Source: Candidatus Heimdallarchaeota archaeon (GTDB lineage Archaea > Asgardarchaeota > Heimdallarchaeia > Hodarchaeales > Hodarchaeaceae). Taken from it: DNA of 64,000 nt. The stretch covers positions 3,225,532 to 3,289,531 of the forward strand of contig CP070695.1 of NCBI GenBank assembly GCA_020353515.1. Direction: 5' to 3'. This document shows positions 19,191-30,185 of the stretch, piece by piece (position 1 is the stretch's first letter; each line of letters begins with the position of its first letter). A model generated the notes under the pieces. The model did not search any database, had not been told where the DNA came from, and saw nothing but the letters and a program-made list of their open reading frames with translations. A program made the position numbers and the translations under genes.

Positions 19191-21029
19191 TCATATAGAT
19201 TTTCGATTTACCCTTTTAAATACTATAATAACAAACATCCCAGTAAGAAGGATAGAAAATGTCCAGCTGGGAGTTACTGATGACTTTTTTGATGATTGAA
19301 AGGTTATTTCAGTTAGATCTGGATTATTAGGGGTGGTTTCAGGATCTTCATCTTTGTTGTTATTATCACCATCTATTAGGTAGGGATCGTCCACTATCCC
19401 ATCATCATCCCTATCGGGCCCGAGCCAGTCACTCCAATAATTATGAGAGAATTCATTCTTCTCTTGATACCCTTCATCGAACACTTGTGAATCTCCATCG
19501 GGATTGTTGTCAAAGAAATCATTTTGTTCCACTTGGCAATCATCACATCCACCCAATTTTACACCATATAACTCATTGTCTCTAATGATATTGTTGGTAA
19601 TAGACCCATCTGTGACGTCTAAAAGATCAATTCCTTGATCAAGGTTATTTTCAATAATATTCCGATTAATGGTGGTATCATCTGACCAACCACCATAGAT
19701 CCCAGAAAAAGGATTATTCTTGATTGTATTGCCATCAATAGTCAAATCAGATGAATCCTCAAAATATATTCCTGAATCTTTATTATTAGCAATAAGATTG
19801 GTTGAGACATTGACATATTTCGAGAACCACACAAAGATTCCAGAAAAAAGGTTATCCATTATATAATTACCATTGATGTTTATATTTGAGCTGAAACACA
19901 CGAGAATCCCATCAACAGTTCTTTCCAGTATTTGTTCCCTAATTTCTATTTCATCACAATCAACCAGAACAATTTGTCCTGCACCTGAAGGAATAGTTTC
20001 CTCCTCTTTATTTTCCCAATAGATTAATGGCTTGTCATTTACTGTATTGCCAGTTACTTCGTCCTGTACGCACTCATCGACTTCTAAACCAAGAAGAAAT
20101 AAACCATTGTTTTGTAGTTCATTATTTTTTATTGTATTGTCTGAAGAAAACCAGAGATAAATACCAGCAGCAGTATTATTAGTAATATGATTATCATGGA
20201 TATTTAGACCCGAGCATAAGACTGCTGTTATCCCCGCAGAGCCAGCTGTTAATGTTACATCAGTTACTTCAATATTTTCACAATTATAAAGAACTATTTG
20301 ACCAGCATCGGTTGAAATAGTCCCATCATCCTCATTTTGCCAATAAATCAACGGTTTATCGTTCACGGTATTGCCAGATACTTCAGTTTGCTCACATTCT
20401 GCCGGATCTTTGAGTGCCCTAAGAATAAACCCATTATTTGAGAATTCATTGTCCAAAATTCTATTATTTGGAGAGTATCGTAGGTCAATTCCATACCAGC
20501 TATTATCTGACAAGATATTTTTTGTTATTGTCATATTTGTAGATTCTACAGTGCATATACCTCGCCAATTATTGTTTGTAAGATCGTTATTTTTAATGTA
20601 GATGTTATTACATCCATAAAAATTTATCCCATCTTGATCATTCCCTTCTATCGTGCAATCGACTATCTTGCCATTTGAAACACTGGAAAATTCGATTCCA
20701 ATGTCTCCATCCTTCAAGATACAATTACTTATTTGAAAAAACACGTCTGTATCACGAATTGATATCAAGGATCCGGAACCAGTAATTGAAAGACCATCAA
20801 TAATATACGGATCTAAATGACTACCATCACCTTCTAAGTCTTCAGAAATTATTAGATCATTGAACTCGGAGTTCCCAGAAATTGAGATGGGATTATGAGA
20901 CTCGTAATCACTAGCTACAATCTTTCTATGGGCTATTTTTGAATCCTGGTTTCCCAATCCAAATTCAGAAACCATTAGAATTAATAAGAGAAAAAATACT
21001 AGAAAAAGTAGACTTGAGGACCTTCTCAA
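19191..21029 (-). CDS. Surface-anchored right-handed beta-helix (NosD/CASH-type) protein
   Basis: Probable TTG start 21029 with GGAGG 9 nt upstream and a signal peptide (track start 21170 overlaps the neighbour); N.I..N...GI repeats; duplicated NTVNDKPLIYW; NYWSDW..PD; TPSW + TM + basic tail. Confidence 0.88.
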   Translation of the reverse strand: MRRSSSLLFLVFFLLLILMVSEFGLGNQDSKIAHRKIVASDYESHNPISISGNSEFNDLIISEDLEGDGSHLDPYIIDGLSITGSGSLISIRDTDVFFQISNCILKDGDIGIEFSSVSNGKIVDCTIEGNDQDGINFYGCNNIYIKNNDLTNNNWRGICTVESTNMTITKNILSDNSWYGIDLRYSPNNRILDNEFSNNGFILRALKDPAECEQTEVSGNTVNDKPLIYWQNEDDGTISTDAGQIVLYNCENIEVTDVTLTAGSAGITAVLCSGLNIHDNHITNNTAAGIYLWFSSDNTIKNNELQNNGLFLLGLEVDECVQDEVTGNTVNDKPLIYWENKEEETIPSGAGQIVLVDCDEIEIREQILERTVDGILVCFSSNININGNYIMDNLFSGIFVWFSKYVNVSTNLIANNKDSGIYFEDSSDLTIDGNTIKNNPFSGIYGGWSDDTTINRNIIENNLDQGIDLLDVTDGSITNNIIRDNELYGVKLGGCDDCQVEQNDFFDNNPDGDSQVFDEGYQEKNEFSHNYWSDWLGPDRDDDGIVDDPYLIDGDNNNKDEDPETTPNNPDLTEITFQSSKKSSVTPSWTFSILLTGMFVIIVFKRVNRKSI

Positions 21030-21084
21030 TATTAATAACCTCCACTCTCCTCCTTGGGTTTTCTCCAGATATTTAATGTTTTCA

Positions 21085-21402
21085 TCAAGTTGACTTTGAC
21101 CGATTTTCGATAATCTGACATCTTCTAGTACGTAGTTCAATTCGATATTCTGCAATAAAATATCCTGCAAAGAAAATCAAAAGAAATAAGGCTATTTGTG
21201 AAGTTATATGCAGAATGAAGAAAAAAGGTGGAAGTATTTCCTGGAGTTCATAAAGACTAAGTGGGGAGATTTGGGGATAAAATGAGCTCACAATTATTCC
21301 TCCTCCAAATGATAAAAGAAAAAGGAAGCAGATCAACATTACTCGCTTAAATTCGAAGAAAAATAGTCTAATTTGTGATATGTTTACCTCAGAATCCTCC
21401 AT
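21085..21402 (-). CDS. Small 2-TM hypothetical protein
   Basis: Two hydrophobic helices; GGAGA upstream of ATG. Confidence 0.55.
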   Translation of the reverse strand: MEDSEVNISQIRLFFFEFKRVMLICFLFLLSFGGGIIVSSFYPQISPLSLYELQEILPPFFFILHITSQIALFLLIFFAGYFIAEYRIELRTRRCQIIENRSKST

Positions 21403-22989: not shown

Positions 22990-25383
22990 TTGATGCAACT
23001 GACCCATAAGAGAATAGCATTCCCTTTTTCCGCTATCGTTGCGATGGATAAATTAAAATTAGCAACAATAGTAAACGCAATTAATCCTAAAATTGGAGGA
23101 GTGCTAATTCAAGGAGCAAAGGGTTCAGGAAAAACCACAGTTGCTCGTGGATTAACTGATATTCTTCCAGAATTGGAAGTAGTAAAAGGGTGTTCATTCA
23201 ATTGCAACCCTCATGATCTTTCAAATATGTGTGAAACATGTGGTGAAAAATATCGTAAAGGAGAGCAATTTGAAATAGAAGAGAGGGAGATGGCAGTCGT
23301 AGATCTTCCACTGGGAGCAACAGAGGATCGAGTAGTTGGAAGTCTCGATGTAGAAAAAGCAATAAAGCATGGAATAGGAGCATTAGAACCAGGGATCCTT
23401 GCAGAAGCAAACCAGAATATTCTATATGTTGATGAAGTCAATTTGCTACCTGACCATGTAGCTGACGATTTATTAGATGCAGCTGCAACAGGATGGAATG
23501 TGGTTGAGCGTGAAGGAATTTCAGTTCGCCATCCCTCCCGATTCGTATTCATAGGAACCATGAATCCTGAAGAGGGACAACTTAGACCACAACTCTTAGA
23601 TCGCTTCCCTTTGTCTGTAAGTGTTGAAAGAATAATGACTGTTGAAGACAGAATGGAAGTAGTTAAGAGAACCATTGAGTTTGAAGCGAATCCTGAACGT
23701 TTCATCGAAATCTATAAAGAAAGTCAAATAGAATTACGAAATCGAATAATTGCTGCAAGAAAGTTGTTGTCAAAAGTTGAGTTACCTGAAAAGCTCCTTG
23801 AAGTCATTTGCCTTACCTGCTTAGATCTTCAGGTCGATGGGATGAGACCCGATATTGTCATAAGCAAAACAGCACAAACATTAGCAGCATTTGAAAACAG
23901 AAGTGTTGTTACCCCAGATGACATCTTGATTGCTTCAGAACTTACATTAAAACACAGAACTAGAGAGGGAGGTTTTCAGGATCCTGCAACACCAGAAGAA
24001 ATAGCGAAATTATTTGTAGCAAAAGTAAAGCAGGTAAAATACGTCGAACAAATTGAATCTTCAGATACTGACCAAAAAAAAAAGCGGGAAAAACCTAAAG
24101 GCCGAGTCATGATTTGGGCTCCACAAGAAACAACAGAAAAAGAAGAAGATTTGGCTCATAGGAAGAGTAGTAAGACTCGGGCAAGGATTTTTCAATTTTT
24201 TAGCAGGATCGGTCCAAGCTTCGCACTTGGTAAGAGACTGAGGAAAAGTCCTGAAGACTCCCCCGTCATGAATGGTGCTATAAAACAAGCAGAAAATATT
24301 AAAGGTGAGATTTCTGAAGGAGTAGAACGGGGCAAGTTTAAGGGGATTCCCTCTGTCACTTATGCAGTTAAGTCTTCTGATATGAGAAAAGGTAATTCTT
24401 TAATCTCAAGGATAAAAGATAGTATCCTTTCACCATTTAAACCTCCTGATTTTAAAAAAACTCGATTTAAAGGAGTTAGTAGTACTGCTGGAAAACGAGC
24501 GGAGTCGATTACAACTCTCCATCGCGGCCGACCTTGGGGTTGGAAGTTTCCGAAGGGAAAACCATCAGATATTCATTTACCAGCAACAATTAGAGCTGCA
24601 GCTAGACATCAGAATCATCGAGTCCCGTCTCTAGGAACTTCGATTAGTATATCCTTAGAGGATGTCCGAGAAAAGTTAAGAGTATACAAGGCTCCTATGA
24701 CGCTAATCTTTGTCATAGATCTTAGTGGATCTATGATGTTCAATATTGAAGCTAGTAAAGAAGCCCTCCTACGGTTGCATAGAGATGCCTACCGTTATAG
24801 AGATAAAGTAGGTATTGTAGCTCTCAAAGATACAAGAGCTGTTGTTGTTCAACATCCTATCACAAACTTAGGTGTGGTAGCAAACAAGCTATTCGGATTA
24901 AAAATCAGTGGGTTCACTCCTTTGGCAGCGGGTATGTTAAAAGCGCTGGACGTCTTAAAGGAAACTAGACGTCGGGATAGAGCAACTATTCCAGTCATTG
25001 TTATCATTACGGATGGAAACACAAATGTCCCGCTTTATAGAAGTCTAGAGACTGGAGAACTTCGTGATTTCAAAGAGCTAGGAATCGCATTAAGGGAATT
25101 TGAAGATTTAGCCGTTAAGGATGTGGTCTCTGTTTCTAAAGCCATTGAAAGAGAAGGGATCCATACAGTGATTGTTAATACAAACCCTCATTATATTGGA
25201 CGTGAAACTTATGGTTTTGCAGTAACGAAAATCATTACCTCTATAACCAAGGGAAGTCATCACCAAATTAGCAGACTTAGTGACGGCGAAGAGCTTGTCG
25301 AAGACATCTTTGAAGGTATTAGTGAAGACCAAAGAAAAATTTCTGCAGGAGTCCCTTTATCACAACTCAATGTATGGGATTGA
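22990..25383 (+). CDS. chlD: Mg/Co-chelatase subunit D-like protein (ChlI-type AAA+ plus vWA domain)
   Basis: GAKGSGKT Walker [43 protein letters not shown]; DLSGS MIDAS, TPLAAG, ITDG. Confidence 0.9.
24074..24098 (+). other. Putative -1 frameshift / slippage site (A10G; A_AAA_AAG) with -1 frame stop
   Basis: Zero-frame CAA AAA AAA AAG; -1 frame reads AAA GCG GGA AAA ACC TAA (stop 24096-24098). Confidence 0.55.
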
Positions 25384-25480: not shown

Positions 25481-28400
25481 TTAGTAAAATGAAATGTCGA
25501 AATACGATTGTAATTCTCTAACCAATGTGAAGGCATGTTTTATTGCCTCAGTAGTCTTGATACATGAGAGTTCTATATATAATTCTCCTATAATTTTCGA
25601 TTCGGCCTTAATTAATGCTGTACCTAAAGAATTCAATCCATTAGCGATCTCTGTTCGCAATTTGATCCCTCTAATTATTTTATCTTCCCCCTTTAGAGTT
25701 ATATCCTTCCACGGATTGTCCCATATTGACTCCCGTGGATCACCATCGATTTTCAACTCAATGAATAGCTTTTCTGAGATTTCTGGTTTTTTCAAGCAAC
25801 CACTCATTATGATCTGATTTTGGTCTAGTTTCACAAGGATTTCTTTAATTGATCCTGAATATGGAACTAATTGTGCATTAAGACCAGTATCAGCTTTTTT
25901 AAAAATCACGTCTTTTACTCGATACTGAATGGATGAAAATAATTTTTCATCATCATCAACTGGTTTTATGGGTGGGGGAATTTCTATGGCTTTCTTTACT
26001 GGTTGAAGGTCTGCTGTAATAACTGGTTCAGCTGGTTCCTCCACTAAAGGCTTTTCTGGTACCTTTGGTTCTAGCTTTAGGAGTTTAGGTGGAAGAGTTG
26101 GTTCTATTTCAGAGGGTTCTTCTCTAACAACAGGCTTTATTTTTGTAGGTTCTTTTATTGGTGGTTCGGGTTTCAATGGTTCTACTAAAATTACTGGTTC
26201 CTTGATTGGGGTCTTTATATGAACAGTAGGTTCTATTTCCAGAGACTCTTTAACAGCAGGTTCTATCATCAGGGGTTCTTCTTGAATAAGGGGCTCTATA
26301 ATTCTAGCTAGTTGCGTATCGGGAGCTGGGGTCGGTTTCTTCTTTGTTGAGTAACGCCATGCAAAAAAACCAAAAGAAAGGATTATTATTATTCCACTGA
26401 TAAGGAGTAGTAAAAACAATACAATGGATAATAAATCTGGGATAAAAGAGTCCGATGGAGGAATTATATTCTTAACGCTAAATGTTTGGTCTGATATATC
26501 TTCTGTTGTTAAGCCTCCAGAACTGGTTGCTACTACTTTGATCAAATAGGTAGTTCCATCAGGAAGGCTGGTGGTGTTCCAATCATAACGAGTAGTGGTT
26601 AACCTTGAAGCTATTGGATCCCAACTACTCCCGTTATCAGAGGAATAGTATAGAGTATAAGTGACATTGTGACCCAACGAATCTGTTGAAGCTGACCATT
26701 GAATAGTGATGGTTTCATTGAGGATTTCCCCACCATTGGGAGATAAAACACTTACTTGTGTAATGTAATGTATAGAAAATGTACCATCAGAGACGTCTTC
26801 AGCTGTTAACTCCTCTGAACATGTTGCTACAACATGTATCGTTAAAGATGTCCCCTCAGTAATTGTCGAAGTATCCCAACTGTATTGAGTTGTAGTTAAT
26901 CCTGAACCTAGCAAATTCCAAGTATTTCCATTATTGGTTGAATAGAATACGGTATAGGTGACATCATGACCTAATCCATCATTAGATGCTGACCATTGAA
27001 CTGAGATGGTTCCATTTAGAGTTTCCCCTCCATTAGGAAATATGATAGTCGGTGTGGAAAGAGTATTATGAATTGAAATTATATCATCAGAAATATCTTC
27101 AGCTATTAATCCTTCTGAACAGATTGCAACAACCTTAATCAAGTATGTTGACCCATCAGCGACAGAGACAGTGTTCCAACTATAATTCGTTGTATTTAAT
27201 CCTGATACTAAAGTCTCCCAAGTGTCCCCATTATCCGCAGAAATGTTTATTGAATAGACCACCTTATGTCCTAACGAATCTATTACTGGTAACCACTGAA
27301 TTCCTTCAGTCCAAGTGTAGATTTCACCTCCATTGGGAACCACGACAGTAGGCTCTGTAAGTATGTCTACTAAAGCAGTTGGATACTGGGAAGTCAAAGG
27401 ATATGAGTCTTGGCCTCCTCCATCCATGTGATAGGGATTATCAACTATATTATCAACATCAATGTCAGGATTTGTCCATTCACTCCAGTAGTTGAAAGCA
27501 AATACATTCATACTCCCCTCAATTAATGAGCCCTCATTTAATGCTTGAGGACTATTTGGGGGATAATTCCCTTCACCGTTTCCAATGAAATTGTTCCAAC
27601 TAATAGTATTATAACTTGTAAAACTACAATCGAGACCATAATAATAATTATCTGCTAGATTGTTACTTGAAATGTTATTATAATTTGCAGAAGTACCTAA
27701 ATTAATTCCCCTCCCATCATTATCAAAAATATTATTGCCAGTCAAGATGTTGTTTAGTCCATCAAGGTGGATACCGTTCATAGTATTGTTATATATGGTA
27801 TTTCTTTCAATTACATTAGAATCAGACGTTCCATCTCCGAGTTCAATCCTAATTCCGTCTCCAGGAGTCTTAAATACAGTATTATTTCTGATAATGCACT
27901 CTGAGGAACCCCGAATATTGATCCCACAATCAACCCCGTTTTCATAAACGGTATTATTGGAAATAACAGCGTGAATAGAACTTTCGATATAGATTCCTAA
28001 TCCATTACATCCATGAACAGTATTGTTGGTAATCACGTTATAATCTGAATAGTAATTAGTGATTCCTTCAAAATTATTAAATATAAAATTATTTGTAACA
28101 GAATTATTCAATGAGTTTTCTACATAGATCCCAGGGCCTCCTCCTGCATCTTGAACACTATTATTCGTTATTTCATTATTATTCCCATAGATCCATATTC
28201 CATTAACATTATCAAAATAATCGTTAGAACTGATGATGTTATTATTACCATTAATAATAAATGGGAACTCAATGTTATAGAAAGTATTATTGAAAATAGT
28301 ATTATTATTAGATTCAGTGAGAAGAATCCCCCATCGCTCATTATTCCCCCCAATAGAATTATGAATTGTGTTATTGACAATATAACCAGAGCTCACATTC

Positions 28401-28894
28401 CGAAGAGAGATTCCTGTTATACCATTAACAAAAAAGGAGTCCCTAATCTGGAAGCACAGATCAGTGTTTAAAATTTCTACTAGAAAATCTGAACTAGTTA
28501 TTTGGAATCCAGAAATAATAATTGGATTACTCTCCATTCCATTTCCAGACCAACCCTCGGTAATAGATTGATTGATAAAATCGGTGTTGCCATCTATAAA
28601 AATAGGATCATGGTCTATAAAGGTGGAAGAAGTAAATTTTAGTTCTTTTTTTGAAACTATTTCATGTATGTTTCCAGTGTTAATAAAAGAGTGATTATCT
28701 CCGTTAATTTCAATAAAACGAGACGTTATACCTCTGAGATCTAGAAATCCAAAATTTTCAGAACCTCTCAAAGGGAGGATCAGTATTAAACAACAAGTCA
28801 AAATTCCAATAAGAATGATTGTGTTTATTACGAACTTCCTCCATGCTAATCTCGTCATCTTATTACTGAAAAGTGTAATATGACTTTTATTCAT
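25481..28894 (-). CDS. Single-pass receptor-like protein: beta-helix, 3 Fn3/Ig-like repeats, TM, Pro/Glu-rich linker, novel cytoplasmic domain
   Basis: N-terminal hydrophobic anchor; NosD-like repeats; 3 x PNGGE...QW...D.LGH.V.Y...S.DNG..W; TM followed by RYSTKKK; C-terminal domain shared with 28923-30185. Confidence 0.88.
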   Translation of the reverse strand: MNKSHITLFSNKMTRLAWRKFVINTIILIGILTCCLILILPLRGSENFGFLDLRGITSRFIEINGDNHSFINTGNIHEIVSKKELKFTSSTFIDHDPIFIDGNTDFINQSITEGWSGNGMESNPIIISGFQITSSDFLVEILNTDLCFQIRDSFFVNGITGISLRNVSSGYIVNNTIHNSIGGNNERWGILLTESNNNTIFNNTFYNIEFPFIINGNNNIISSNDYFDNVNGIWIYGNNNEITNNSVQDAGGGPGIYVENSLNNSVTNNFIFNNFEGITNYYSDYNVITNNTVHGCNGLGIYIESSIHAVISNNTVYENGVDCGINIRGSSECIIRNNTVFKTPGDGIRIELGDGTSDSNVIERNTIYNNTMNGIHLDGLNNILTGNNIFDNDGRGINLGTSANYNNISSNNLADNYYYGLDCSFTSYNTISWNNFIGNGEGNYPPNSPQALNEGSLIEGSMNVFAFNYWSEWTNPDIDVDNIVDNPYHMDGGGQDSYPLTSQYPTALVDILTEPTVVVPNGGEIYTWTEGIQWLPVIDSLGHKVVYSINISADNGDTWETLVSGLNTTNYSWNTVSVADGSTYLIKVVAICSEGLIAEDISDDIISIHNTLSTPTIIFPNGGETLNGTISVQWSASNDGLGHDVTYTVFYSTNNGNTWNLLGSGLTTTQYSWDTSTITEGTSLTIHVVATCSEELTAEDVSDGTFSIHYITQVSVLSPNGGEILNETITIQWSASTDSLGHNVTYTLYYSSDNGSSWDPIASRLTTTRYDWNTTSLPDGTTYLIKVVATSSGGLTTEDISDQTFSVKNIIPPSDSFIPDLLSIVLFLLLLISGIIIILSFGFFAWRYSTKKKPTPAPDTQLARIIEPLIQEEPLMIEPAVKESLEIEPTVHIKTPIKEPVILVEPLKPEPPIKEPTKIKPVVREEPSEIEPTLPPKLLKLEPKVPEKPLVEEPAEPVITADLQPVKKAIEIPPPIKPVDDDEKLFSSIQYRVKDVIFKKADTGLNAQLVPYSGSIKEILVKLDQNQIIMSGCLKKPEISEKLFIELKIDGDPRESIWDNPWKDITLKGEDKIIRGIKLRTEIANGLNSLGTALIKAESKIIGELYIELSCIKTTEAIKHAFTLVRELQSYFDISFY
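26475..27352 (-). repeat. Three tandem ~98-aa Fn3/Ig-like coding repeats
   Basis: Three copies of PNGGE...YSW(N/D)T...G.TYLIKVVA...EDISD...FS; boundaries approximate. Confidence 0.8.
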
Positions 28895-28922
28895 TTCTGA
28901 ACCTCCTTTGGTTCATAATGGA

Positions 28923-30185
28923 TTAATAAAATGAAATCTCGAAGAATAATTGTAGGTCTTTGATTAATGAGTAAGCAATACTCACAGCTTCCTCCATCTC
29001 GATACAGGTCAACTGAATACAGATTTCTCCTTTGGTTTGTGACTCCACCTTGACTTCTGCTTTTCCTAAAGAAACTAACTGATTTGCGATTCCACTATGC
29101 ATTTTGATTCCGTTTAGGACTCTTTCTCCTCCACTTAGATTAATATTTCGCCAGGGATCCTCCCATGATGGTTGTTTCGGTTCCCCCTCTGTTTTTAACT
29201 CAAGGTTCACGAAAGGAAGATTTGATTTTCTCAAACAGCCTTCCAATAGTATTTGATTCTGATTAAAAGTAACCTTGATCTCATTTATTGATCCTGAAAA
29301 TGGAATAATACGTACAACTTGCCTATTAATTTCCTGTTCAAAGATCAACTCTTTGACCTGATATTGAATGGATGAGAATAATGATTTTATTTCTTTATCC
29401 AAAAGTTCATTTTTGGGATCAGTTTCAGGTATGATCTCTTGGGAAAAGTCTGTATCTGCTATTTCTAATGTAGATGGTTCTTGGTCAGGAATTTCTGGAA
29501 TATTTTTCACAACAGAGAGATTTTGGAGTTCGATAGCTTTTTGAGGTGTTTCTTCTGATAATTCCACTTTATTCATTATTGGAGATATAAATTCTTCCTT
29601 AAAATTAACTTCTTTTTCAATTTTTTTAGGAGATAAGGTGTCTAATACTGTTTCCTCATCAGATTCATATGAAATATGTGCTTCAGGTTCTAATAATTCA
29701 GGTATTATCGCTATGGAATTCAGATACTCTTGTAGACTATTTAAATGATCATAAAACATTTCATTCGAAATATTCCTTTCTAGGAATCTTTTTTTCTGGT
29801 TGAAATACCATATTTTCTTCTGGTTCAATAATAAGTCTTGAGAGGCACCAGGCTGTTTGGCTTGGTCAGCAAAGAGTTTATCGAAGCTTTCAATAGCTTG
29901 CTCTAATGATCTACGGTCTTTGGTAAACTCAACATCTATATTTTGTTGTGATTGGGGAAGTGGTTTTGTTTCTTCTACTTGTTTTTGACCACATTTTGGA
30001 CAATAGCTGGCTTCATGCTTGATCCTTGCATTACAGGAAGAACAGCGTTTCATGCTATTTTTTAAAACATGATTCCACGAGGATGATTCCCATTGGCGTG
30101 GGAGTGTGCTATCACATTTTCGACATTTCGAGAAAACCCGATTGTTTTTTTCTCCACAATATCTACATACAACAAATGGTTCCAT
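28923..30185 (-). CDS. Soluble double-zinc-ribbon protein with C-terminal domain paralogous to the neighbouring receptor tail
   Basis: CRYCG..CRKC and CSSC..CPKCG; acidic linker; LFSSIQY...ISFY domain; probable ATG 30185 (track 30212). Confidence 0.85.
   Translation of the reverse strand: MEPFVVCRYCGEKNNRVFSKCRKCDSTLPRQWESSSWNHVLKNSMKRCSSCNARIKHEASYCPKCGQKQVEETKPLPQSQQNIDVEFTKDRRSLEQAIESFDKLFADQAKQPGASQDLLLNQKKIWYFNQKKRFLERNISNEMFYDHLNSLQEYLNSIAIIPELLEPEAHISYESDEETVLDTLSPKKIEKEVNFKEEFISPIMNKVELSEETPQKAIELQNLSVVKNIPEIPDQEPSTLEIADTDFSQEIIPETDPKNELLDKEIKSLFSSIQYQVKELIFEQEINRQVVRIIPFSGSINEIKVTFNQNQILLEGCLRKSNLPFVNLELKTEGEPKQPSWEDPWRNINLSGGERVLNGIKMHSGIANQLVSLGKAEVKVESQTKGEICIQLTCIEMEEAVSIAYSLIKDLQLFFEISFY

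What the first reader, a model, noticed from the sequence alone, without database searches (positions are those of the whole stretch)
25481..30185. Candidate receptor-adaptor pair sharing an unrecognised ~150-aa C-terminal domain
Seen: two adjacent co-oriented genes, 28 nt apart, end in paralogous domains (about 25481-25942 and 28923-29381). Both start LFSSIQY.VK..IF, share P.SGSI.EI.V, QNQI, GCL, W..PW, GIK, IAN.L.SLG.A, and end exactly in ISFY-stop; my hand alignment gives roughly 69/153 identities. One protein is single-pass (extracellular beta-helix + 3 Fn3-like repeats, TM, basic stop-transfer, long linker), so the domain is cytoplasmic. The other is soluble with two zinc ribbons. Established: receptor plus adaptor joined by a homotypic domain is the logic of TIR and death-domain signalling. 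Inference: a transmembrane signalling or scaffolding module built on a domain I cannot assign to a known family, in a probable Asgard archaeon.
Basis: partly seen in the sequence, partly recalled or inferred. Interest (0 to 1): 0.88.

Follow-up and report, generated by a model that had tools for sequence, protein, structure and literature searches.

The report
Shuffled CCDC47-fold tail in Hodarchaeales
Two neighbouring genes of an Asgard archaeon end in the same unnamed domain, which is predicted to fold like the eukaryotic ER-translocon subunit CCDC47 and is attached to many different proteins in this one genus, but the two genes sit together only in this genome, so they look like products of domain shuffling rather than a fixed receptor-adaptor pair.

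Summary
In detail: both genes end in paralogous ~153-aa domains (69/153 identical). The larger protein has a sequon-rich beta-helix/Fn3 ectodomain and one TM helix, so its domain is cytoplasmic.

The domain is not a new fold. A pLDDT-94 model matches CCDC47's globular domain (Z 12.4-12.8), TtfA (10.3), then YbjN/T3SS chaperones (6-8.5). No residue is invariant.

It is a promiscuous C-terminal tail: five copies in this Hodarchaeales genome, 99 sequences in five architectures, and matches in 24 of 400 genomes of the phylum, nearly all in one genus. It probably derives from a conserved membrane protein carrying two copies of the fold.

The pairing is not conserved. Eight orthologous loci of the zinc-ribbon gene have no tail-bearing receptor beside them, the two domains are not sister copies (AU p=0.01), and the ISFY end varies. 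The receptor looks like a chimera. The recurring neighbour of tail-bearing membrane proteins is a six-TM protein that shares a helical module with the soluble protein.

Best reading: a docking tail, probably heterotypic. Homotypic TIR-like signalling remains possible (~20%). Earlier scan notes found this fold in other prokaryotes.

The parts
25481..28894 (-). 1137-aa single-pass surface protein: signal/anchor, beta-helix, three Fn3-like repeats, TM, Pro/Glu linker, domain B; probably a chimera
28775..28831 (-). N-terminal hydrophobic stretch (aa 22-40), signal peptide or signal anchor
   Evidence: hydropathy
27395..28612 (-). Right-handed beta-helix (NosD-like) ectodomain, sequon-rich
   Evidence: PF13229 E 8.5e-36, PF05048; sequons
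26471..27364 (-). Three Fn3-like repeats
   Evidence: PF00041; three internal hits
26351..26434 (-). Transmembrane helix (aa ~821-848), followed by basic RYSTKKK
25955..26329 (-). Pro/Glu/Lys-rich cytoplasmic linker (22% Pro)
25481..25942 (-). Domain B, copy 1 (CCDC47/TtfA fold by homology to copy 2)
28923..30185 (-). 420-aa soluble protein: two zinc ribbons, helical module M, acidic linker, domain B; the older resident of this locus
29991..30167 (-). Two CxxC..CxxC zinc ribbons (DZR)
   Evidence: PF12773 E 3.2e-6
29691..29945 (-). Unnamed ~85-aa helical module M, shared with the cytoplasmic tail of a six-TM protein (genome C1:3793750-3796491)
   Evidence: E 1e-17 pairwise, HMM E 2.4e-22; no family by Atlas
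28923..29381 (-). Domain B, copy 2 (modelled: pLDDT 94.3, pTM 0.88)

Best explanation
Domain B is a non-catalytic cytoplasmic docking domain of the CCDC47/TtfA fold, an elaborated YbjN/T3SS-chaperone fold. Shown by computation: the fold, the cytoplasmic side, the always-terminal position on a long flexible linker, the spread over five architectures and the lack of conserved pairing. Inferred: (1) it arose as the second copy in a conserved membrane protein (TM, domain A, linker, domain B). (2) One clade was then shuffled onto surface proteins, small membrane proteins and soluble zinc-ribbon proteins in one Hodarchaeales genus. (3) The 1137-aa gene is a chimera of a common surface ectodomain and this tail that came to lie beside the older zinc-ribbon gene in this lineage. 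(4) The tail works as an address label that tethers its carriers to a common membrane-associated partner, as the CCDC47 and TtfA proteins attach to membrane machines. The best candidate partner is the six-TM, module-M protein encoded directly upstream of tail-bearing genes in five genomes.
For: Fold: CCDC47 7tut_4 Z 12.4, 152 aligned, rmsd 3.5; 9i78_4 Z 11.7; TtfA Z 10.3; 7tm3_4 Z 12.8. TM plus domain A of the 442-aa form: CCDC47 Z 14.3, 198 aligned including the TM; Foldseek E 8.8e-5. Architectures: 53 TM+A+B, 19 soluble ZnR+B, 8 beta-helix-TM+B, 8 TM+ZnR+B, 8 other TM+B, 3 partial; the domain ends at most 7 residues from the stop. The shuffled clade (98/99 support) is sister to TM+A+B proteins. 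One gene slot carries different N-termini in different genomes (351, 852, 859, 1238 aa). The ectodomain is 50% identical to a tail-less paralog at C1:3800345-3803275; the genome has about 32 such beta-helix proteins. The pair as one clade is rejected, p-AU 0.010. dN/dS is about 0.1-0.3 where measurable. Six-TM/M gene directly upstream of a B gene or B remnant in G000, G008, G014, G007 and L056, and M fused with B in the soluble protein. Literature: the CCDC47 globular domain contacts eL6 and rRNA H25 (PMC7505659); CCDC47 and SND3 interact through their cytosolic domains (PMC12572126); TtfA is a TM-anchored accessory protein of MmpL3 (PMC6593404).
Against: A shared fold at 5-10% identity does not transfer function. 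The partner is inferred only from gene order and a fusion, among related genomes that are not independent. Two of five copies lying side by side in a genome of roughly 4,000 genes is unlikely by pure chance, and a tail-less beta-helix/Fn3 gene follows the zinc-ribbon gene in one relative (L054), so some link between the two genes is possible. The tree root rests on long branches.
Confidence: 0.55

Rival explanations
1. Homotypic receptor-adaptor signalling: domain B self-associates, so all B-tailed receptors recruit B-tailed soluble zinc-ribbon proteins whether or not the genes are adjacent.
For: The same terminal domain sits on receptors and on soluble proteins in one genome. The wider fold superfamily includes T3SS chaperones, which are dimers (general knowledge; SycN-YscB heterodimer). 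The founder protein has two copies in one chain. The genes are adjacent and co-oriented here.
Against: The adjacency is absent at eight orthologous loci. The pair is not a clade. Co-occurrence is patchy: G003 has the soluble form and no shuffled membrane form found, G012 and G018 the reverse (83-86% complete). The closest structures are CCDC47 and TtfA, which are described binding other partners (PMC7505659, PMC6593404). The soluble protein has no recognisable effector domain.
Confidence: 0.2
2. A CCDC47-like role in membrane-protein biogenesis: the TM+A+B protein is a translocon or ribosome accessory, and B tails direct their carriers to that machinery.
For: CCDC47 is the top structural match for both A and B, TM included. 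Hodarchaeales are a proposed sister lineage of eukaryotes (PMC12077186).
Against: No PF07946 (CCDC47) or PF03669 (Asterix) match over cut-off in the genome. No latch coiled coil follows the domain. Neighbours are not translocon genes. The family was found in only 23-24 of 400 genomes of the phylum. Bacterial clusters match equally well (TM 0.67-0.71, against TMq 0.64 for CCDC47), and domain A weakly hits bacterial DUF3137 (9 of 38 members, best E 2e-4).
Confidence: 0.1
3. A TY-type peptide-binding chaperone domain that holds unfolded or linker segments, of its own protein or of clients, at the membrane.
For: Fold relation to YbjN/T3SS chaperones, Z 6-8.5, a superfamily described as peptide-binding chaperones (PMC9503650). 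Conserved aromatic positions F8, Y13, W79, W83, Y143, F152.
Against: The Z-scores are in the range of a common arrangement. The domain has about 35 extra residues that align only with CCDC47/TtfA (141-152 aligned against 106-119). No member scan hits CesT, YbjN or TY-Chap models.
Confidence: 0.1
4. Neutral hitch-hiking: the tail is a recombination-prone cassette with little function on most carriers.
For: Truncated or frameshifted copies and remnants are common (C1:1950716, C1:2850213, L053, G007, G012, G018). Close ectodomain paralogs lack it.
Against: dN/dS of about 0.1-0.3 and intact frames across 45-66% identity; the hydrophobic core is conserved.
Confidence: 0.05

Closest known systems
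CCDC47 (PAT complex subunit; PDB 7TUT/7TM3/6W6L chain 4 or 7, fungal 9I78; Pfam PF07946)
   Same: Predicted fold of the whole domain (Z 11.4-12.8, 146-152 residues aligned). The related 442-aa protein also matches TM plus globular domain (Z 14.3). Cytosolic location.
   Different: 5-10% identity, no HMM match, no latch coiled coil, no Asterix found. Domain B lies 40-320 residues from the membrane or on soluble proteins, and is multi-copy and shuffled.
TtfA (MSMEG_0736/Rv0383c, PDB 6T84), MmpL3 accessory protein
   Same: Fold (Z 10.3 for B, 11.8 for TM+A); N-terminal TM, domain, then disordered region, as in the 442-aa form.
   Different: TtfA has a single domain and an essential role in mycolate transport. 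No such transporter link is seen here.
DUF3137 (PF11335), uncharacterised bacterial family
   Same: Weak hits in domain A (9 of 38 members, best E 2e-4).
   Different: Domain B itself has no hit; none is over the cut-off in the genome search.
YbjN / T3SS chaperone (TY-chaperone) superfamily
   Same: Core sheet with flanking helices (Z 6-8.5).
   Different: An inserted hairpin, W..PW loop and helix; fused as a tail instead of being a stand-alone small dimer.
TIR- and death-domain receptor-adaptor systems
   Same: Architectural logic only: one terminal domain on both single-pass and soluble proteins.
   Different: Unrelated fold (no TIR or death domain among the top structural matches), no conserved gene pair, no recognisable effector.

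Membership tests
CCDC47 / PAT complex | Cytosolic globular domain fold | tested here: met
   Z 12.4-12.8 for B and 14.3 for TM+A; predicted models
CCDC47 / PAT complex | Single TM directly before the globular domain | tested here: not met
   About 135 residues of linker in the 1137-aa protein and no TM in the 420-aa protein; met only by domain A of the 442-aa paralog
CCDC47 / PAT complex | C-terminal basic latch coiled coil reaching the ribosome exit tunnel (PMC7505659, PMC12572126) | tested here: not met
   Domain B ends at the stop codon; domain A is followed by a poorly conserved, low-complexity linker
CCDC47 / PAT complex | PF07946 profile match | tested here: not met
   No match at E <= 10 in the genome; none in member scans
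CCDC47 / PAT complex | Asterix partner present | tested here: inconclusive
   PF03669 best E 0.56, under cut-off; a small divergent protein could be missed
CCDC47 / PAT complex | Binding to ribosome or translocon | not testable with these tools
   needs biochemistry
YbjN/T3SS (TY) chaperones | Core fold | tested here: met
   Z 6-8.5 over 106-119 residues; middling scores
YbjN/T3SS (TY) chaperones | Profile match to CesT, YbjN or TY-Chap families | tested here: not met
   None among 39 members scanned against Pfam
YbjN/T3SS (TY) chaperones | Dimerisation and peptide binding | not testable with these tools
   needs SEC-MALS and binding assays
DUF3137 | PF11335 match over the gathering score | tested here: inconclusive
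   Domain A weak in 9 of 38 members; domain B none
TIR/death-domain receptor-adaptor | TIR or death-domain sequence family | tested here: not met
   No Pfam match; the model is a mixed sheet of the CCDC47/TtfA type
   0 of 8 orthologous loci
TIR/death-domain receptor-adaptor | Homotypic binding | not testable with these tools
   needs pull-down, two-hybrid or SEC-MALS

The most novel reading that the evidence does not exclude
Hodarchaeales independently turned a CCDC47/TtfA-fold domain into a homotypic (or M-B heterotypic) interaction module that wires a set of variable surface receptors to soluble zinc-ribbon adaptors: a eukaryote-style modular signalling network built on a fold that eukaryotes kept for the ER translocon.
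Probability: 0.2. Interest if true: 0.75.

Novelty: new variant of a known kind. Interest (0 to 1): 0.42.

Why it matters
It gives a fold to an unnamed domain family and shows active shuffling of cytoplasmic tails onto surface proteins in Hodarchaeales, a proposed sister group of eukaryotes. It adds a prokaryotic branch of the CCDC47/TtfA fold that is used away from the membrane, as a detachable tail. I found no paper describing that use; searches for CCDC47 or Asterix together with Asgard returned none. Five small, well-folded paralogs from one genome make the homotypic-versus-heterotypic question directly testable in vitro. The value is limited by the narrow range (one genus), the wide prokaryotic spread of the fold and the unknown partner.

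Tried and rejected
Complex prediction of the two window domains, with alignments: 'no answer', score 0.00 against a mark of 0.32; it is no evidence either way. Sequencing runs: no RNA holder listed; other DNA runs cover the stretch only in pieces. Sequence searches of the isolated domain against Pfam, PDB sequences and NCBIfam gave nothing. Foldseek alone gave no match at E <= 0.001 for domain B, though CCDC47 appeared at prob 1.0. Profile-profile comparison of A with B was not significant (E 0.14 and 0.052), so their kinship rests on the shared structural matches. Atlas search of module M gave no usable hit. TIR and death-domain folds were not among the listed structural matches. Promoter/terminator scan was at chance level. 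The search for related loci failed with the broad alignment and with the single protein. The TtfA structure paper is not held. Rejected: tandem duplication as the origin of the pair (AU p 0.010); ISFY as a functional tail motif (5 of 39); a link to the convergent ChlD-like AAA/vWA gene (opposite strand, and absent or displaced at several loci); misassembly of the junction; CCDC47 orthology (see membership test). Many dS values are saturated, so the dN/dS figures are rough.
Full report
OBSERVATION. Two minus-strand ORFs, 28923-30185 (420 aa) and 25481-28894 (1137 aa), lie 28 nt apart. Their last ~153 residues align with 69 identities, E 4e-52. The long protein has a hydrophobic N-terminus, a beta-helix, three Fn3-like repeats, one TM with a basic stop-transfer and a Pro/Glu-rich linker. 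It has 22 N-glycosylation sequons before the TM and none after it; nine other beta-helix carriers show the same asymmetry. The shared domain (domain B) is therefore very probably cytoplasmic. The short protein is soluble, with two zinc ribbons. A contig from the probable source sample bridges the junction without differences. Names on homologous records point to Candidatus Hodarchaeales.

FOLD. Pfam, NCBIfam and PDB sequence searches find nothing for domain B. A 39-sequence alignment has no invariant residue; the near-invariant positions are hydrophobic or small, which argues against an enzyme. The AlphaFold2 model is confident (pLDDT 94.3, pTM 0.88). Against 48,161 representative chains the best matches are CCDC47 (rabbit Z 12.4, 152 aligned, rmsd 3.5; fungal Z 11.7) and mycobacterial TtfA (Z 10.3). 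YbjN proteins and type III secretion chaperones follow at Z 6-8.4; a second run agrees (Z 12.8 and 11.4). Unnamed bacterial clusters in the Atlas match about as well (TM 0.67-0.71). The fold is thus known and is not special to Asgard archaea; earlier scan notes report it in other archaea and bacteria (unchecked).

FAMILY. The genome holds five full copies and one 25-codon remnant. A search of 1.84 billion proteins gives 49 hits, one of them spurious. With other searches I collected 99 distinct domain sequences. All end within 7 residues of the stop. Architectures: 53 TM+A+B, 19 soluble zinc-ribbon+B, 8 beta-helix-TM+B, 8 TM+zinc-ribbon+B, 8 other TM+B, 3 partial. Matches occur in 24 of 400 genomes of the phylum: 17 of 22 in this genus and weak ones in seven others.

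ORIGIN (inferred). The most constant form is a ~445-aa protein (TM, domain A, linker, domain B) at a conserved site upstream of small-GTPase genes. TM plus domain A also folds like CCDC47, with the TM included in the alignment (Z 14.3, 198 of 210 residues; Foldseek E 8.8e-5), and weakly hits DUF3137. A and B do not align significantly by profile, so their duplication is inferred from structure. In the trees the variable architectures form one supported clade (98/99) that is sister to TM+A+B proteins. This fits one escape of domain B followed by shuffling. One gene slot carries a 351-aa two-TM, an 852- or 859-aa, or a 1238-aa N-terminus in different genomes. Another slot holds an intact 715-aa receptor in one metagenome, a frameshifted one in another and only linker plus domain in this genome. 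Intact copies appear to be under purifying selection (dN/dS about 0.1-0.3, with saturation).

THE PAIR. The zinc-ribbon gene is the older resident. Its orthologs occur at the same locus in G014, G008, G003 and contigs L050, L051, L063, L064 and L054. None has a B-tailed receptor downstream; most run straight into a convergent gene. These loci are kin and not independent. In L054 a beta-helix/Fn3/TM gene does follow, and its best hit in this genome is the 1137-aa protein by a small margin, but it has no tail. The ectodomain of the 1137-aa protein is 50% identical to a tail-less paralog at C1:3800345-3803275, one of about 32 beta-helix proteins. Its tail DNA is closer to the orphan copy (71% over 449 nt) than to its neighbour (63%). 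An AU test rejects the two window domains as one clade (p 0.010). ISFY ends only 5 of 39 members. The receptor is best read as a chimera and the pairing as lineage-specific. That two of five copies are adjacent is still more than chance would easily give. Homology-aided recombination, an old surface-protein slot, or selection for co-expression could each explain it; I could not separate them.

A BETTER-CONSERVED NEIGHBOUR. The soluble protein carries an ~85-aa helical module (M, nt 29691-29945). M also occurs in the cytoplasmic tail of a 913-aa six-TM protein (E 1e-17 pairwise). That gene lies directly upstream of a B-tailed gene or B remnant in five genomes or contigs. Longer orthologs of the soluble protein share further segments with these six-TM proteins. 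The soluble protein thus joins in one chain two modules that are otherwise on adjacent membrane proteins. By gene-fusion logic this suggests that B works with M-bearing proteins; this is inference only.

MECHANISM. In the two characterised relatives the fold attaches a membrane protein to something else. The CCDC47 globular domain contacts eL6 and rRNA H25 (PMC7505659), CCDC47 meets SND3 through their cytosolic domains (PMC12572126), and TtfA is an accessory protein of MmpL3 (PMC6593404) with no lipid pocket (PMC7458404). I put 0.55 on a docking tail with a heterotypic partner, 0.2 on a homotypic network, 0.1 on a translocon role, 0.1 on a peptide chaperone and 0.05 on neutral hitch-hiking.

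MEMBERSHIP. It folds like CCDC47 but is not a CCDC47: no profile match, no latch helices, no juxtamembrane position, no Asterix over cut-off and a patchy distribution. It is not a TIR or death-domain system by sequence or fold, and the conserved-pair test fails.

VERDICT. A real, previously unnamed domain family with a known fold and a new use as a shuffled tail in one Hodarchaeales genus. The receptor-adaptor reading is only partly supported. New variant of a known kind; interest 0.42.

Noticed in passing
G000 C1:4596179-4597519 (L005; P0057), outside the window: Conserved 442-aa protein with an N-terminal TM and two CCDC47/TtfA-fold domains, at a syntenic site upstream of three small-GTPase genes across the genus. 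A second, divergent paralog exists in G008, G011, G012, G003, G014 and G010.
   Followed up: yes
G000 C1:3791186-3803275 (L060): Four-gene envelope operon: beta-helix/Fn3 protein, 1285-aa repetitive multi-TM protein, 913-aa six-TM protein with repeats and module M, 859-aa B-tailed receptor. The two middle proteins have no Pfam match.
   Followed up: partly
G000 C1:1950578-1951240 (L002): Truncated B-tailed gene (linker plus domain only) after an FtsX/ABC/FtrD-like cluster; the same slot holds an intact or frameshifted beta-helix receptor in L052 and L053.
   Followed up: yes
   Followed up: no
window 22990-25383 (+): ChlD-like AAA+ and vWA protein encoded as one 797-aa ORF here but as two overlapping ORFs in G014, G008, L050 and L063.
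   Followed up: no
window 19191-21170 (-): 659-aa beta-helix protein with a C-terminal TM and no cytoplasmic tail, a few genes downstream of the pair.
   Followed up: no
G000 C1:3584431-3585063 (-): Small two-TM protein that starts with module M, just downstream of a probable HTH regulator gene (third copy of M in the genome).
   Followed up: no
G000 C1:2850213-2850278; G012 C271, G018 C179, G007 C1: Short remnants of the last helix of domain B in intergenic DNA, a sign of frequent loss.
   Followed up: partly
L044 5457-7319, L045 7158-8930, P0046: Distant members in other families of the class: zinc ribbon, long coiled coil, then a divergent domain B.
   Followed up: no
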